Virus record (IMG/VR): IMGVR_UViG_3300009081_000012
Coordinates: 12,982 to 76,981 of that record
DNA length: 64,000 bases
Direction: 5' to 3' (one strand)
Origin: a virus
The notes under the pieces were generated by a model. It saw only the letters and a list, made by a program, of their open reading frames with translations. It had not been told where the DNA came from and did no database searches. The translations under genes were made by a program, and so were the position numbers. Shown piece after piece: positions 427-2,900 of this stretch; the first letter of the stretch is position 1, and every line of letters begins with the position of its first letter.

Positions 427-462
427 TACTATTTACCTCCTTTCATTGATTGTTGTTATTTG

Positions 463-504
463 AAAAAATCTTCTAAACCTACCATAACTGATAGGCTTAG
501 AAGA
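463..504 (-). terminator. 16-bp hairpin plus U-run (intrinsic terminator or RNase III-type site), copy 1
   Basis: Minus RNA UCUUCUAAGCCUAUCA-GUUA-UGGUAGGUUUAGAAGA-UUUUUU; mismatches are G.U only on the minus strand. Confidence 0.7.
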
Positions 505-505
505 C

Positions 506-573
506 GCCACTGTTTCTGTTGCCAAGCACAGTGACCAAGCTTCTCCGCGCCTTTACGCGGTAGCGGGCTCGAT
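506..573 (-). ncRNA. Two-hairpin intergenic structured RNA, unidentified
   Basis: AUCGAGC/GCUUGGU enclosing CCGCG-UAAAGG-CGCGG, then GUCACUGU-GCUUGGCAACAGAA-ACAGUGGC. Confidence 0.5.
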
Positions 574-585
574 TAGATCACGTTC

Positions 586-885
586 CTAACTGAAGATGAG
601 ATCTTCTTCACCTTCTATAGGAAACGCCACCCAATTGAACAGGAGGGCCAAGACAGACGCATCTTTGGCCAGTCTGTAAATAGACTGTCCTTGGATGTTC
701 TCTCCATCCCCAAGCCTCCGACCCTTTTCGATGCTACGAGCCATCGATGTAAGGACCATAGCGGCCTGTTGCCTGGATATGGTTATCGAGGAGTTTATTT
801 CCTCAATACCACACTCATGGCACGCCTCGGCCAAGAGACCGCAGTACTTGATCTCCTGACCGCCGATTGTTTCGTACATCCCCAT
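586..885 (-). CDS. Hypothetical protein
   Basis: 99-aa ORF with AAAGGAGGTG SD. Confidence 0.75.
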   Translation of the reverse strand: MGMYETIGGQEIKYCGLLAEACHECGIEEINSSITISRQQAAMVLTSMARSIEKGRRLGDGENIQGQSIYRLAKDASVLALLFNWVAFPIEGEEDLIFS

Positions 886-956
886 ATATCACCTCCTTTG
901 TGATGGTTATGGGGTCGCTTATCTGGGGTCAAGCGACTGACCCATACGGCAACATA

Positions 957-1160
957 CTACCTGTTGTATGTTCTATTGAATGACGCGTCAGACATACACA
1001 GATAATGTATGCCTTCCAGTAATCCGATAATTCCAGGAATGAACGTCCAACAGAATACCAAATATAGTAATCCCTGGAAACACCTGCCAAGATAAAACTT
1101 ATGAACGCCTATTCCACCCAAAATTAATGCAAAAATACCAGCTACGAGTTTGTTCTTCAT
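957..1160 (-). CDS. TM2-domain membrane protein
   Basis: KNKLVAGIFALILGGIGVHKFYLG...LYLVFCWTFIP is the TM2 signature. Confidence 0.9.
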   Translation of the reverse strand: MKNKLVAGIFALILGGIGVHKFYLGRCFQGLLYLVFCWTFIPGIIGLLEGIHYLCMSDASFNRTYNR

Positions 1161-1194
1161 GATAATACTCCTTTCTATTTGATTGTTGTTGTTT

Positions 1195-1234
1195 AAAATC
1201 CTCTCAGCCTACCAGTATTGATAGGCTCAGAGGA
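1195..1234 (-). terminator. 16-bp hairpin plus U-run, copy 2
   Basis: Minus RNA UCCUCUGAGCCUAUCA-AUAC-UGGUAGGCUGAGAGGA-UUUU; paralogous to 463-504 with a compensatory U-A to C-G change. Confidence 0.65.
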
Positions 1235-1273
1235 CGCCAGGAAGTCGAAGCCTCCTGGCTGGTAAAAACACAA

Positions 1274-1501
1274 CTAACGTCTAATAGACACCCTACCGTC
1301 TGTTATTTCAACGGCGTCCGGGTCTCTCCAGTAAGCAGTAGCACGAAGGCTACTATTAGCTTCACGTTCAACTATTATTACTTTTGTTAATGGGTCCATT
1401 AATATCTCCCCCATCAGCTTTCCTTCATTTGGAAGACCACTAAATTGATTGTTGACAAACCCTTTCTCAATACCCTCTTTTACGAAATCTTCTCTAGTCA
1501 T
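1274..1501 (-). CDS. Hypothetical protein
   Basis: 75-aa ORF with GAAAGGAG SD. Confidence 0.7.
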   Translation of the reverse strand: MTREDFVKEGIEKGFVNNQFSGLPNEGKLMGEILMDPLTKVIIVEREANSSLRATAYWRDPDAVEITDGRVSIRR

Positions 1502-1529
1502 TTGTTTGCTCCTTTCTTGATTGTTGTTA

Positions 1530-1701
1530 TTGGCAAGTCCATACTTGAGGATTGTCCAGAGAGAGTAACGGTACGGGCAATGCGGTTTCTCTGACCTCTC
1601 ACCATTTTTGGTAGCCTGTGCCTCCTACTAGTCCCAGAGGTCTAATTTGCTACTCGGCGTATATGGATATATTTTGGGGCTTTCACCCATAGGCTTGCCA
1701 A
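1530..1701 (-). ncRNA. ~172-nt multi-stem structured RNA, unidentified
   Basis: Closing stem UUGGCAAG/CUUGCCAA; GGGU-GAAA-GCCC; UCCAUAU/GUAUGGA; GACCUCU/AGAGGUC; UACCA-AAAA-UGGUG; GAGUAGC/GUUACUC crossing CAGAGA/UCUCUG; fills the whole GC-richer spacer. Confidence 0.65.
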
Positions 1702-1713
1702 ACTTGTTTTTGG

Positions 1714-2283
1714 TTAAATTGTTGTAATACGTCTGTTTGGTCTTGGCTTATTATTGTTTATTCGGCCGAGCAGGAAGCCGCCGAATAGCACTGCTAATAT
1801 AATTACACCTAACCCAACAAACATCTTCCATTCTTCTGGGTTGTTGCTAGGATATATGAAGCGTGTATTCTGAACAACATAGAACATATCCACTACTTCG
1901 AATAGTTCTACACCATCAACACCTCTTTTGAAGTCAACTACAACTTCAATGGTGGTTCTCTCCCCATACTTGAATGGTTTGGTGACATCAGTAAATCTAA
2001 AGATATCGCCTACATTATTTACAAACTCAACGTTATAAGAGATATACCCTGCTGGAGCACCGTCTATATCTACTACGCTAACGACACTCTTTACCGTAAC
2101 ATCCATGTAAAGTGATGTATGTTTGTCTGATGCAGCAGTTAACGATGTCCATAACAGTATTAACATAATAATAACTACTACTATTATAAGCTTGTTGTTG
2201 CTCTGCTTTTCAATAACATACTCTTTTGCCAAGTTGTTCTGTTCCATCGCAAGTGCGATGAGTTCCTTAGTTGATAGATACAT
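1714..2283 (-). CDS. Two-TM membrane protein, hypothetical
   Basis: Hydrophobic segments near the N- and C-termini; GAAAGAGG SD. Confidence 0.75.
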   Translation of the reverse strand: MYLSTKELIALAMEQNNLAKEYVIEKQSNNKLIIVVVIIMLILLWTSLTAASDKHTSLYMDVTVKSVVSVVDIDGAPAGYISYNVEFVNNVGDIFRFTDVTKPFKYGERTTIEVVVDFKRGVDGVELFEVVDMFYVVQNTRFIYPSNNPEEWKMFVGLGVIILAVLFGGFLLGRINNNKPRPNRRITTI

Positions 2284-2331
2284 TGTACACCTCTTTCCTG
2301 CGTATTGGATGCGCAGCCCCCGTATGTTTAG

Positions 2332-2553
2332 TTATTGTATTTTCTGCACCTTCCAATTACGTAAGCCTACCCAGCACATAGACAGGTTAAAAGTGAATAG
2401 TGCTGCCTGTGGATACGCCTTTGTTGCGATGTTTATAACAATGAACCCTATATTAGATATCACCCAAAGGTAAAAACACAAACGATTGCCTTTAGCATTA
2501 ACATAGGTGCCTATTACCGCAACTACAGTAAACAACCAACCTATATATTCCAT
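2332..2553 (-). CDS. Small 3-TM protein, half-PnuC/SemiSWEET-like
   Basis: MEYIGWLF...GTYVNAKGNRLCFYLWVISN...GLRNWK; start reassigned to the ATG after AAAGGAGG. Confidence 0.6.
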   Translation of the reverse strand: MEYIGWLFTVVAVIGTYVNAKGNRLCFYLWVISNIGFIVINIATKAYPQAALFTFNLSMCWVGLRNWKVQKIQ

Positions 2554-2564
2554 GATAACCTCCT

Positions 2565-2774
2565 TTATTTTATTAAAAGATTTGGCGAGCAAAATTGACC
2601 GTTTGGTCCTTTAATATATAAACCAGACGCATTTACCTGATTAGCAAGAAACCGCTCATGTTCAAGAACAGTAAGTAATTCTAATGAACTGTTACCCACT
2701 GTAGAAGATGTGAGTGGTTTATATGCACAGATGTGCTGTCTTGCGAATAGCCATACAAACGCGTAGTTGTTCAT
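2565..2774 (-). CDS. Hypothetical protein directly downstream of the hammerhead
   Basis: 69-aa ORF with AAAGGGAG SD. Confidence 0.6.
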   Translation of the reverse strand: MNNYAFVWLFARQHICAYKPLTSSTVGNSSLELLTVLEHERFLANQVNASGLYIKGPNGQFCSPNLLIK

Positions 2775-2805
2775 TATGGTATCTCCCTTTGTTAAATGGT
2801 TATTT

Positions 2806-2871
2806 TGTTACTGACGTTTCGGCCCTCCATAGGCCTTATTCATCAGGGATGCGGTAACAGCACCCGACGCC
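2806..2871 (-). ncRNA. Type III hammerhead ribozyme
   Basis: GGCGUC^ stem I GGGUGC-UGUUACC-GCAUCC, core CUGAUGA, AUAA insert, stem II GGCC-UAUGGAG-GGCC, GAAA, CGUC closing stem III; loop I UGUUAC pairs with 3' GUAACA; predicted cut between 2866 and 2865. Confidence 0.85.
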
Positions 2872-2900
2872 AAGCAGTTTAACGTCATGCTTAGGACATT
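2870..2900 (-). ncRNA. Small H-type pseudoknot abutting the hammerhead
   Basis: AAUGUC-CUAAGCAU-GACGUU-AAAC-UGCUUGG; loop AAGCA pairs with UGCUU. Confidence 0.6.

What the first reader, a model, noticed from the sequence alone, without database searches (positions are those of the whole stretch)
440..2900. Early operon in which almost every intergenic spacer is a different structured RNA
Seen: on the minus strand the spacers hold, in transcription order, a pseudoknot plus hammerhead (2806-2900), a small hairpin at an SD (2298-2321), a ~170-nt multi-stem RNA (1530-1701), a hairpin plus U-tailed hairpin (1195-1259), a two-fold element (908-946), and two hairpins plus a U-tailed hairpin (463-573). 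Three elements share the junction hexamer GGCGUC (503-508, 1233-1238, 2866-2871), which is the cleavage site in the hammerhead. The plus-strand operons show nothing comparable. Known: self-cleaving ribozymes are enriched between small phage genes, and new ribozyme classes were found in such contexts. Inference: an RNA-level processing programme that cuts the early transcript into units, possibly including unrecognised ribozymes.
Basis: partly seen in the sequence, partly recalled or inferred. Interest (0 to 1): 0.82.

Follow-up and report, generated by a model that had tools for sequence, protein, structure and literature searches.

The report
Hairpin-punctuated phage operon with variant hammerhead
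An uncultured sediment and soil phage separates the small genes of one operon with stable RNA hairpin modules (a five-copy double-hairpin repeat) and one odd-looking hammerhead ribozyme motif; this most likely trims or stabilises the long message gene by gene, a design already known from other phages, and I found no sign of new ribozyme classes.

Summary
Spacers of the minus-strand operon are far more structured than plus-strand spacers: 9 of 19 have fold z below -3, against 2 of 26 (Fisher p 0.004). "Each spacer a different RNA" is wrong, though.

- **Double hairpin (DH):** two of the six listed elements (1259-1194 and 535-464) are copies of one family. It has exactly five copies, all sense-strand, and three lie left of the window. 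Covariation is strong.
- **Hammerhead:** 2873-2811 is a statistically real type III hammerhead motif, at 23.6 bits (Rfam gathering score 48.5) and E 4e-4 for the genome. It has a 4-nt insertion between CUGAUGA and stem II. Its active fold is predicted 10 kcal/mol less stable than three abutting hairpins, so activity is uncertain.
- **Unsupported elements:** the 170-nt "multi-stem RNA" and the hairpin at 2298-2321 show no signal above chance.
- **GGCGUC:** in the three DH copies that carry it, the hexamer is inherited family sequence. Sharing it with the hammerhead is weak evidence.

No relatives, RNA reads or Rfam matches support unrecognised ribozymes. The best reading is intercistronic stabiliser, leaky-terminator or processing hairpins plus one variant hammerhead, each followed by a CAA-rich leader and a strong Shine-Dalgarno (SD) site. 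This scan noted similar arrangements before on other phage DNA.

The parts
2811..2873 (-). Variant type III hammerhead motif. Stem III is 2873-2867 with 2817-2811. The GUC site is 2868-2866, with the predicted cut between 2866 and 2865. Stem I is 2865-2860 with 2852-2847, and loop I is 2859-2853. CUGAUGA is 2846-2840, followed by the extra AUAA at 2839-2836. Stem II is 2835-2831 with 2825-2821. GAAA is 2820-2817.
   Evidence: cmscan Hammerhead_3 gives 23.6 bits (gathering score 48.5) and E 0.088 for 3.7 kb against all families. E is 4.3e-4 for the whole record with this one family. A descriptor search finds 1 motif where 0.003 are expected.
2874..2887 (-). Upstream strand UGACGUUAA plus loop. 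It pairs with the cleavage-site strand UUGGCGUC (2873-2866) in an 8-bp hairpin, or alternatively with AACGUCA (2818-2812). In the predicted ground state it is hairpin 1 of three abutting hairpins, and the first junction of those hairpins is the hammerhead cleavage site.
   Evidence: The MFE is -31.7 kcal/mol, against -21.7 for the hammerhead fold and -22.9 for the alternative with UGACGUU paired to AACGUCA. Pairing probability is 0.77-0.90 for the upstream hairpin and about 0 for stem III.
1194..1259 (-). Double-hairpin (DH) element, copy 1 in the window. Hairpin A is 1259-1236 and hairpin B is 1235-1198, abutting with a 0-nt junction. The tail is UUUUAAAC.
   Evidence: Model R1 scores it 78.7 bits. 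The spacer folds with z -6.1. Covariation is shown.
464..535 (-). Double-hairpin (DH) element, copy 2 in the window. Hairpin A is 535-506 and hairpin B is 505-468, followed by UUUUUU. It is the only copy with a full intrinsic-terminator look.
   Evidence: Model R1 scores it 67.1 bits. The terminator scan hits 505-468. The spacer folds with z -7.0.
537..571 (-). Extra GC-rich hairpin directly upstream of DH copy 2.
   Evidence: It appears in both the MFE and the centroid structure.
908..946 (-). Single stable hairpin after the TM2-domain gene, with no U tail. It has two stacked stems (UAUGGG/CCCAUA and GUCGCUU/AAGCGAC).
   Evidence: z is -3.2 and -2.6.
1530..1701 (-). The 170-nt stretch proposed as a multi-stem RNA. 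It is not supported as a structured RNA and its function is unknown.
   Evidence: z is -0.29. The closing helix occurs in 10% of shuffles. There is no Rfam match.
2298..2321 (-). Small 5-bp hairpin near the SD; not distinguishable from chance.
   Evidence: z is -0.49, and 60 of 200 shuffles fold as well.
446..457 (-). AACAACAAUCAA leader motif. It also occurs at 1179-1190 and 1517-1528. A/C-rich unstructured leaders lie between each structured element and the strong SD.
   Evidence: Exact motif search and sequence reading.

Best explanation
**What it is.** The minus-strand block is one long operon of small accessory genes. It runs from about window 3400 leftwards for about 16 kb. Its intercistronic spacers follow a common plan: stop codon, then one or more stable hairpins, often a short U run, a 20-25 nt unstructured CAA-rich leader, a strong SD and the start codon.

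**The hairpin modules.**
- The dominant module is a lineage-private double hairpin in five paralogous copies. Hairpin A sits on a conserved GCCA/UGGC base and abuts hairpin B of 17-21 bp.
- I infer that these modules act in the mRNA. They would serve as 3'-end or stability elements and leaky terminators, or as sites for a host double-strand or structure-specific RNase. Either way, each cistron would get its own protected ends and its own expression level.

**The hammerhead.**
- The first spacer instead holds a type III hammerhead with a 4-nt bulge between A9 and stem II.
- If it is active, it cuts after GGCGUC. The products then refold so that the upstream mRNA ends in a 3' hairpin and the downstream mRNA starts with a 5' hairpin.

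**Shown and inferred.**
- Shown: the structures, their strand specificity, the covariation, the statistics of the hammerhead motif, and the modular spacer layout.
- Inferred: every functional step (termination, cleavage, stabilisation).
- I put hammerhead self-cleavage in vivo at about 0.4.
For: - **Excess structure:** it is specific to this operon.
- **DH family:**
  - There are exactly five copies, all in sense orientation. They lie 4-14 nt after a stop codon (50 nt in the copy that has an extra hairpin first). In four of five, the next start codon follows 33-46 nt later.
  - 91.9% of cells are paired and 12 of 30 pairs changed on both sides. None of 500 shuffles reaches this, and slid controls give 32-47% paired.
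  - Sense-strand scores are 67-81 bits against 20-30 bits antisense, so G-U pairs point to RNA.
  - U tails of 2-6 U follow hairpin B, and one copy passes a terminator scan.
- **Promoters:** there is no promoter-like excess in the spacers, so downstream genes need read-through.
- **Hammerhead:** the core is complete and the motif is improbable by chance. It lies in an intergenic spacer, in sense orientation, after the first gene. The cleavage site coincides with the junction of predicted hairpins 1 and 2.
- **Literature:**
  - Hammerheads flank genes in prophages, and long phage transcripts may be processed into single-gene mRNAs (PMC3088659).
  - Prokaryotic hammerheads are persistently tied to phages (PMC6155905).
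  - T7 early RNAs are cut by RNase III (Dunn and Studier 1973, PMC427223, as cited in PMC3082872).
Against: - There are no RNA data of any kind for this phage.
- No relatives were found, so conservation of the hammerhead cannot be checked.
- Hairpin B is long and its base is A/U-rich. U tracts are short in four of five copies, so termination may be weak or absent.
- The hammerhead fold is 10 kcal/mol above the MFE and has about zero ensemble probability. A canonical phage hammerhead used as a control keeps its three stems in the MFE.
- From my own knowledge, only 1-nt insertions between A9 and G10.1 are reported as tolerated. That is the place of a catalytic metal site.
- "Early" timing of the operon is assumed, not shown.
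Confidence: 0.6

Rival explanations
1. One reading: a programme of several different self-cleaving RNAs. The double hairpins and/or the 170-nt element would be unrecognised ribozyme classes that share the GGCGUC cleavage site with the hammerhead.
For: - Structured elements sit where hammerheads sit in other phages (PMC3088659).
- TGGCGUC occurs 5 times on the sense strand of the operon, against 0.47 expected.
- The hammerhead spacer and the double hairpins both fold as directly abutting hairpins.
Against: - The double hairpins have no conserved unpaired nucleotides. The junction is 0 nt and the loops differ in length and sequence. Conservation lies in helices, as expected for duplicated hairpins.
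- Three of the five TGGCGUC are paralogues.
- In the double hairpins the hexamer straddles two helices. At genome 4084 it opens a helix, and in the hammerhead it is stem III plus the cleavage site, so its role is not consistent.
- No twister, pistol, hatchet, HDV-like or other ribozyme family matches at permissive thresholds.
- The 170-nt element has no fold signal.
Confidence: 0.05
2. The repeated double hairpins are mainly cassette-boundary repeats. They would be recombination or module-shuffling sites, or selfish intergenic repeats like PeSLs or REP/REPIN elements. Any effect on the mRNA would be secondary.
For: - They are repeated sequence at gene boundaries in a block of small ORFan and counter-defence-type genes (NADAR, SLOG, nucleotidyltransferase).
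- The block has a higher G+C content (0.37-0.45) than the rest of the phage (0.30-0.39, mostly 0.30-0.35).
- In one sediment run, a contig matches up to genome 13519, a few bases beyond hairpin A of DH copy 2 (which ends at genome 13516), and then continues as unlike sequence (table 7).
- PeSL cassettes of T4-type phages do mediate such shuffling (PMC2839356, PMC4122927).
Against: - Strand-specific G-U pairing and compensatory changes argue that the fold is selected in the transcript.
- There is no promoter part as in PeSLs.
- The ends carry no attC-type R'/R'' cores.
- The element was not found outside this phage, so mobility is not evident.
- Only one breakpoint was seen.
Confidence: 0.15
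3. The hammerhead motif is an inactive relic, or a hairpin array that merely descends from a hammerhead. All spacers would then be ordinary terminator or stabiliser hairpins with no self-cleavage anywhere.
For: - The active fold is disfavoured by 10 kcal/mol, and the catalytic CUGAUG is sequestered by CGUCAG.
- There is a 4-nt insertion next to A9, and the score is 23.6 bits against a gathering score of 48.5.
- Perreault et al. note that some predicted phage hammerheads are inactive (PMC3088659).
Against: - All invariant core nucleotides and all three stems are intact, which would decay quickly without selection.
- Stems I and II are of matched length, as in active type III forms.
- The cleavage site coincides with a hairpin junction, so the MFE may be the post-cleavage state.
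Confidence: 0.2

Closest known systems
Clustered hammerhead ribozymes flanking genes in phage and prophage operons (Perreault et al. 2011, PMC3088659; Rfam RF00008 and RF02276)
   Same: A hammerhead core lies in a sense-strand intergenic spacer between small phage genes. The proposed role is to cut a long transcript into gene-length mRNAs.
   Different: There is only one hammerhead here and it is non-canonical, with a 4-nt bulge between A9 and stem II. It scores below the Rfam threshold and a competing triple-hairpin fold is predicted to win. The other spacers carry plain hairpin modules instead of ribozymes.
RNase III processing signals between T7 early genes (Dunn and Studier 1973, PMC427223). 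From my own knowledge, also the Bacillus phage SP82 early mRNA cleavage sites.
   Same: These are intercistronic hairpin signals in a phage operon. After cutting, they leave protective hairpins on the mRNAs.
   Different: T7 sites are single hairpins with an internal loop. Here two complete hairpins abut with no linker and a U run follows. No cleavage has been shown and the host and its RNases are unknown.
REP/BIME/REPIN intergenic palindromes of bacteria (PMC3116915; the mRNA-stabilising role of REP is from my own knowledge, Newbury et al. 1987)
   Same: This is a repeated, structure-conserving extragenic palindrome family. It lies at the 3' ends of genes inside operons and could block 3' exonucleases and attenuate transcription.
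   Different: It has five copies in one phage and none were detected in bacterial reference genomes. All copies share one orientation, and there is no RAYT-type transposase.
PeSL promoter-early stem-loop cassettes of T4-type phages (PMC2839356, PMC4122927)
   Same: Repeated stem-loop modules lie at the boundaries of small accessory genes in a variable region.
   Different: No promoter part was detected. Shuffling at these sites has not been demonstrated.

Membership tests
Hammerhead ribozyme, type III (RF00008) | Conserved core C3-U4-G5-A6-N7-G8-A9, G12-A13-A14, the A15.1-U16.1 pair and an N-U-H cleavage triplet | tested here: met
   CUGAUGA, GAAA, the A-U pair and GUC all align to the model consensus (alignment).
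Hammerhead ribozyme, type III (RF00008) | Three helices around the core, with stems I and II capped by loops and stem III open | tested here: met
   The stems are 6, 5 and 7 bp.
Hammerhead ribozyme, type III (RF00008) | Stem II (the 10.1-11.1 pair) directly adjoins A9 and G12 | tested here: not met
   Four nucleotides (AUAA, 2839-2836) separate A9 from the first stem II pair. The model skips stem II as a local end.
Hammerhead ribozyme, type III (RF00008) | Score at or above Rfam's gathering threshold | tested here: not met
   The score is 23.6 bits against 48.5. Note that a textbook-perfect phage type III hammerhead (L008) reaches only 48.0.
Hammerhead ribozyme, type III (RF00008) | The active three-way junction is a favoured fold | tested here: not met
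   The hammerhead fold is -21.7 kcal/mol against an MFE of -31.7, and stem III probability is about 0. The control L008 keeps the junction in its MFE. Tertiary energy is not modelled.
Hammerhead ribozyme, type III (RF00008) | Mg2+-dependent self-cleavage that gives 2',3'-cyclic phosphate and 5'-OH ends | not testable with these tools
   No RNA run is listed for this phage.
Intrinsic (Rho-independent) terminator | A G+C-rich stem directly followed by a run of U | tested here: inconclusive
   One of the five double hairpins (505-468 plus U6) passes the scan. The others have 2-4 U, and the base of the stem is A/U-rich.
Integron attC / CALIN cassette sites | Terminal R'' (RYYYAAC) and R' (GTTRRRY) cores on an imperfect hairpin | tested here: not met
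   No copy has both cores, and no core lies at the element ends.
PeSL cassettes | A stem-loop fused to an early promoter | tested here: not met
   There is no excess of sigma-70-type sites and none lies next to the double hairpins. Other promoter types are not covered.
Other self-cleaving ribozyme classes in Rfam (twister, twister-sister, pistol, hatchet, HDV-like, hairpin, glmS) | A match to the family covariance model | tested here: not met
   There is no match at E up to 10 in window 1-3700, or at E up to 1 in the 13.5 kb to the left.

The most novel reading that the evidence does not exclude
**Hammerhead as a switch.** The hammerhead would be a natural conformational switch. Three near-palindromic GACGUC-like strands (2887-2881, 2873-2866 and 2818-2811) toggle it between an inert triple hairpin and an active core. 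The AUAA bulge would be a new tolerated core variation.

**Double hairpins as cut sites.** The abutting double hairpins would be recognition sites for an unknown junction-specific cut, by protein or RNA. Both mRNA products would then end in hairpins.

**What this would amount to.** Together these would form a built-in, multi-signal mRNA punctuation code in a phage operon.
Probability: 0.1. Interest if true: 0.7.

Novelty: new member of a known kind. Interest (0 to 1): 0.38.

Why it matters
If the elements work as inferred, this operon is a compact natural example of a phage insulating each small gene of a long transcript. The insulation would come from interchangeable RNA modules: a ribozyme in one spacer and hairpin pairs in the others, each with a standard unstructured leader. 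That would be useful for understanding why ribozymes cluster between phage genes, and as parts for synthetic operons.

The variant hammerhead would also test how much insertion the A9/G10.1 region tolerates. None of this is a new principle. Hammerheads between phage genes, intercistronic processing hairpins and repeated gene-boundary stem-loops are all described already.

Tried and rejected
**Searches for relatives (none useful)**
- blastn of window 1-3700 against 50,697 phage records gave no match. A 79-nt double-hairpin query gave only one chance hit.
- The search for related loci found nothing with the 143-aa protein in viral contigs, the 189-aa protein in metagenome contigs, or the 562-aa protein in viral contigs.
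- The search for homologous proteins with the 143-aa protein returned only itself.
- Double-hairpin DNA patterns gave 0 hits in viral contigs. They gave 3 hits in genome contigs, none of which matched model R1.
- Hammerhead patterns in viral contigs and metagenome contigs gave unrelated canonical hammerheads (L008 type III; L014 and L026 type II; L005, which by eye reads as a hammerhead with open stem I and is not Rfam-checked), chance hits in coding DNA, and one unrelated conserved RNA family. None was a homologue of this spacer.

- Sequencing runs: no RNA holder is listed.
- I laid four DNA runs on the operon. Strain variants of about 90-99% identity exist, but the list of differences was cut and showed none inside the spacers. 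No covariation test on the hammerhead was possible.

**Ideas considered and dropped**
- Trans-cleavage of the double-hairpin junctions by the hammerhead: the stem I arm GCAUCC cannot pair with CUCUGA or UUCUAA.
- attC-like sites.
- An RNase P substrate mimic: there is no 3' CCA.
- An HK022 put-like antiterminator RNA: five intercistronic copies rather than promoter-proximal ones. I could not test this.
- A 35-aa ORF (1498-1605) and a 20-aa ORF inside the 212-nt spacer: neither has a usable SD, and the 35-aa ORF runs through the shared non-coding leader motif.
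Full report
**Setting.** The window is bases 12982-76981 of a 76,981-bp IMG/VR virus record with an estimated completeness of 28%. Near-identical DNA occurs in freshwater-sediment, soil and wetland metagenomes.

The finding lies at the start of a minus-strand operon. 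That operon begins near window 3400, opposite the plus-strand genes, and runs leftwards out of the window for about 16 kb in all. Its genes are small. Those with a family match are a TM2-domain protein, a PnuC-like fragment, a zinc ribbon, a SLOG/YspA protein, a nucleotidyltransferase, NADAR and DUF6011. It is therefore an accessory or counter-defence type block. "Early" is an assumption. Its G+C content (0.37-0.45) exceeds that of the rest of the phage (0.30-0.39, mostly 0.30-0.35).

**Is the structure real?** I called genes roughly and folded every same-strand spacer of 40-400 nt against dinucleotide shuffles. In the minus operon, 9 of 19 spacers have z below -3. On the plus strand only 2 of 26 do (Fisher p 0.004, Mann-Whitney p 0.004; medians -2.55 and -0.29).

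Within 440-2900 the picture is mixed:
- The spacers with the hammerhead (z -2.6 and -3.2), the two double hairpins (z -6 to -7) and the hairpin at 946-908 (z -2.6 and -3.2) stand out.
- The small hairpin at 2298-2321 does not (z -0.49).
- The 170-nt "multi-stem RNA" does not either. Its z is -0.29, its 8-bp closing helix arises in 29 of 300 shuffles, and it has no Rfam match.

**The double-hairpin family.** The elements at 1259-1194 and 535-464 are not different RNAs. They are copies of one family, with three more copies left of the window at genome 10404-10471, 10966-11038 and 12166-12244.

Anatomy:
- Each copy is a hairpin A on a conserved GCCA/UGGC base (GUCA/UGGC in one copy). It is followed, with no free nucleotide, by hairpin B of 17-21 bp and a U-containing tail.
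- In two copies a UA next to the junction can pair into either helix, so the junction there is ambiguous.

Evidence that the fold is selected:
- On a five-row alignment, 91.9% of cells pair and 12 of 30 pairs changed on both sides. None of 500 shuffles reaches this, and sliding the partners drops pairing to 32-47%.
- A covariance model finds exactly these five copies in the 77-kb record, at 67-81 bits on the sense strand. The same places score 20-30 bits on the antisense strand, so the G-U pairs say the fold belongs to the transcript.

Layout:
- Copies begin 4-14 nt after a stop codon, or 50 nt in the copy that has an extra hairpin first.
- In four of five copies the next start codon lies 33-46 nt downstream, behind an A/C-rich leader (AACAACAAUCAA in three spacers) and a strong SD.
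- Only the copy at 505-468 has a full U run and passes a terminator scan. The others have 2-4 U and an A/U-rich stem base.
- No promoter-like excess exists in the spacers, so downstream genes must be read through.

The family has no conserved unpaired nucleotides, which argues against a catalytic core. It was not found in IMG/VR or in 185,579 reference genomes.

**The hammerhead.** At 2873-2811, Rfam's type III model aligns end to end at 23.6 bits against a gathering score of 48.5. E is 4.3e-4 for the whole record with that one family. GUC, CUGAUGA, GAAAC and the A15.1-U16.1 pair are all present, and stems III, I and II have 7, 6 and 5 bp.

A descriptor that requires these features finds this one site, where 0.003 are expected per simulated genome. 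I wrote the descriptor after seeing the motif, so that figure flatters it somewhat. A textbook-perfect type III hammerhead from another viral contig scores only 48.0, so the threshold is severe.

Two things count against simple activity:
- Four nucleotides (AUAA) separate A9 from the first pair of stem II. From my own knowledge, only a 1-nt insertion there (the CChMVd hammerhead, De la Pena and Flores 2001, listed in PMC6155905) is known to be tolerated. Perreault et al. found that core insertions usually reduce activity (PMC3088659).
- The active fold is predicted at -21.7 kcal/mol, against -31.7 for three abutting hairpins. In that ground state the cleavage-site strand pairs with an upstream UGACGUUAA, and CUGAUG pairs with CGUCAG, so stem III has about zero probability. 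The control hammerhead keeps its junction in the MFE.

A point in the other direction: the junction between predicted hairpins 1 and 2 is exactly the cleavage site. The stable fold may therefore be the post-cleavage state, in which the upstream mRNA ends in a 3' hairpin and the downstream one begins with a 5' hairpin.

I put descent from a genuine hammerhead at about 0.85 and appreciable self-cleavage in vivo at about 0.4.

**GGCGUC.** The hexamer occurs six times on the sense strand of the operon, against 1.7 expected. TGGCGUC occurs five times against 0.47. Three of those are paralogous double hairpins, so there are at most three independent events.

Its role also differs from place to place. 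It is stem III plus the cleavage site in the hammerhead. It straddles two helices in the double hairpins. At genome 4084 it opens a helix. GGCGUC-like stem III ends are also common in ordinary type II hammerheads (consensus). I give the shared hexamer little weight.

**What could not be done.**
- No relatives could be recovered by protein or DNA.
- No RNA run is listed.
- Four DNA runs laid on the operon show that strain variants exist. The differences listed did not include the spacers. One contig breaks off at genome 13519, a few bases beyond hairpin A of a double hairpin. That is a single weak hint of cassette exchange.

**Verdict.** The operon is punctuated by selected RNA structure built from a few modules: one five-copy double hairpin, some single hairpins and one variant hammerhead. 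It is not built from a series of different ribozymes.

The most likely function is intercistronic stabilisation, attenuation or processing of the mRNA. The closest described systems are:
- hammerheads flanking phage genes (PMC3088659);
- T7 early RNase III sites (PMC427223);
- REP-type stabilisers (PMC3116915 for the repeat family; the stabilising role is from my own knowledge);
- PeSL cassettes (PMC2839356).

This scan has already described comparable spacer modules in other phages, and other first-reader notes on this genome list the same double-hairpin family and the same hammerhead. The finding is a new member of a known kind. It carries a modest chance that the hammerhead is an interesting switchable core variant.

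Noticed in passing
L002:2687-2990 (minus strand; about 10 kb left of the window): A 304-nt spacer holds a tRNA-like 3' end (GGUUCAAAUCC T-loop...CUCGCUCCA) around a long insert. ARAGORN and Rfam find no tRNA or tmRNA there. Another first-reader note calls it a tRNA mimic.
   Followed up: partly
L019, L020, L021, L022, L029, L037, L038, L042, L047 (metagenome contigs): This is a conserved non-coding family carrying GGCGUC, CUGAUGA, a 1-4 nt insertion, a stem II hairpin and GAAACGUC. It has no stem I hairpin, and a conserved GGUUGUGUUUGAUGAAUUU lies downstream. It matches no Rfam family at E up to 0.01. It may be a hammerhead-derived RNA of another lineage. It is not homologous in context to this spacer.
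   Followed up: partly
window:40010-40054: Two tandem copies of a 21-22 bp palindrome (ATGTCCAAATTTTGTGGACAT type) lie in a plus-strand spacer with fold z -6.5. It looks like an operator rather than an RNA element.
   Followed up: no
L002:10745-10910 (minus strand): Downstream of the double hairpin at genome 11038 lies an 8-codon mini-ORF with a strong SD. Its UGA stop overlaps the AUG of a 46-aa ORF (an AUGA overlap), which suggests translational coupling.
   Followed up: no
L007:12583-12689: In one sediment run, a strain variant replaces 105 bp at a gene boundary with 25 unrelated bases that carry another SD leader (tables 5 and 5c). Gene-boundary indels therefore occur in this operon.
   Followed up: no
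L008:2052-2106 (minus strand): A canonical type III hammerhead in an unrelated viral contig scores 48.0 bits, just under Rfam's gathering score of 48.5. It is followed directly by a run of ten U.
   Followed up: partly
L002:6155-6292 and L002:4000-4269 (minus strand): Further spacers of the same operon are packed with other stable hairpins (z -8.0 and -3.4). One includes a 21-bp stem. A GGCGUC/GACGUU helix lies at genome 4089-4040. These are not members of the double-hairpin family.
   Followed up: partly
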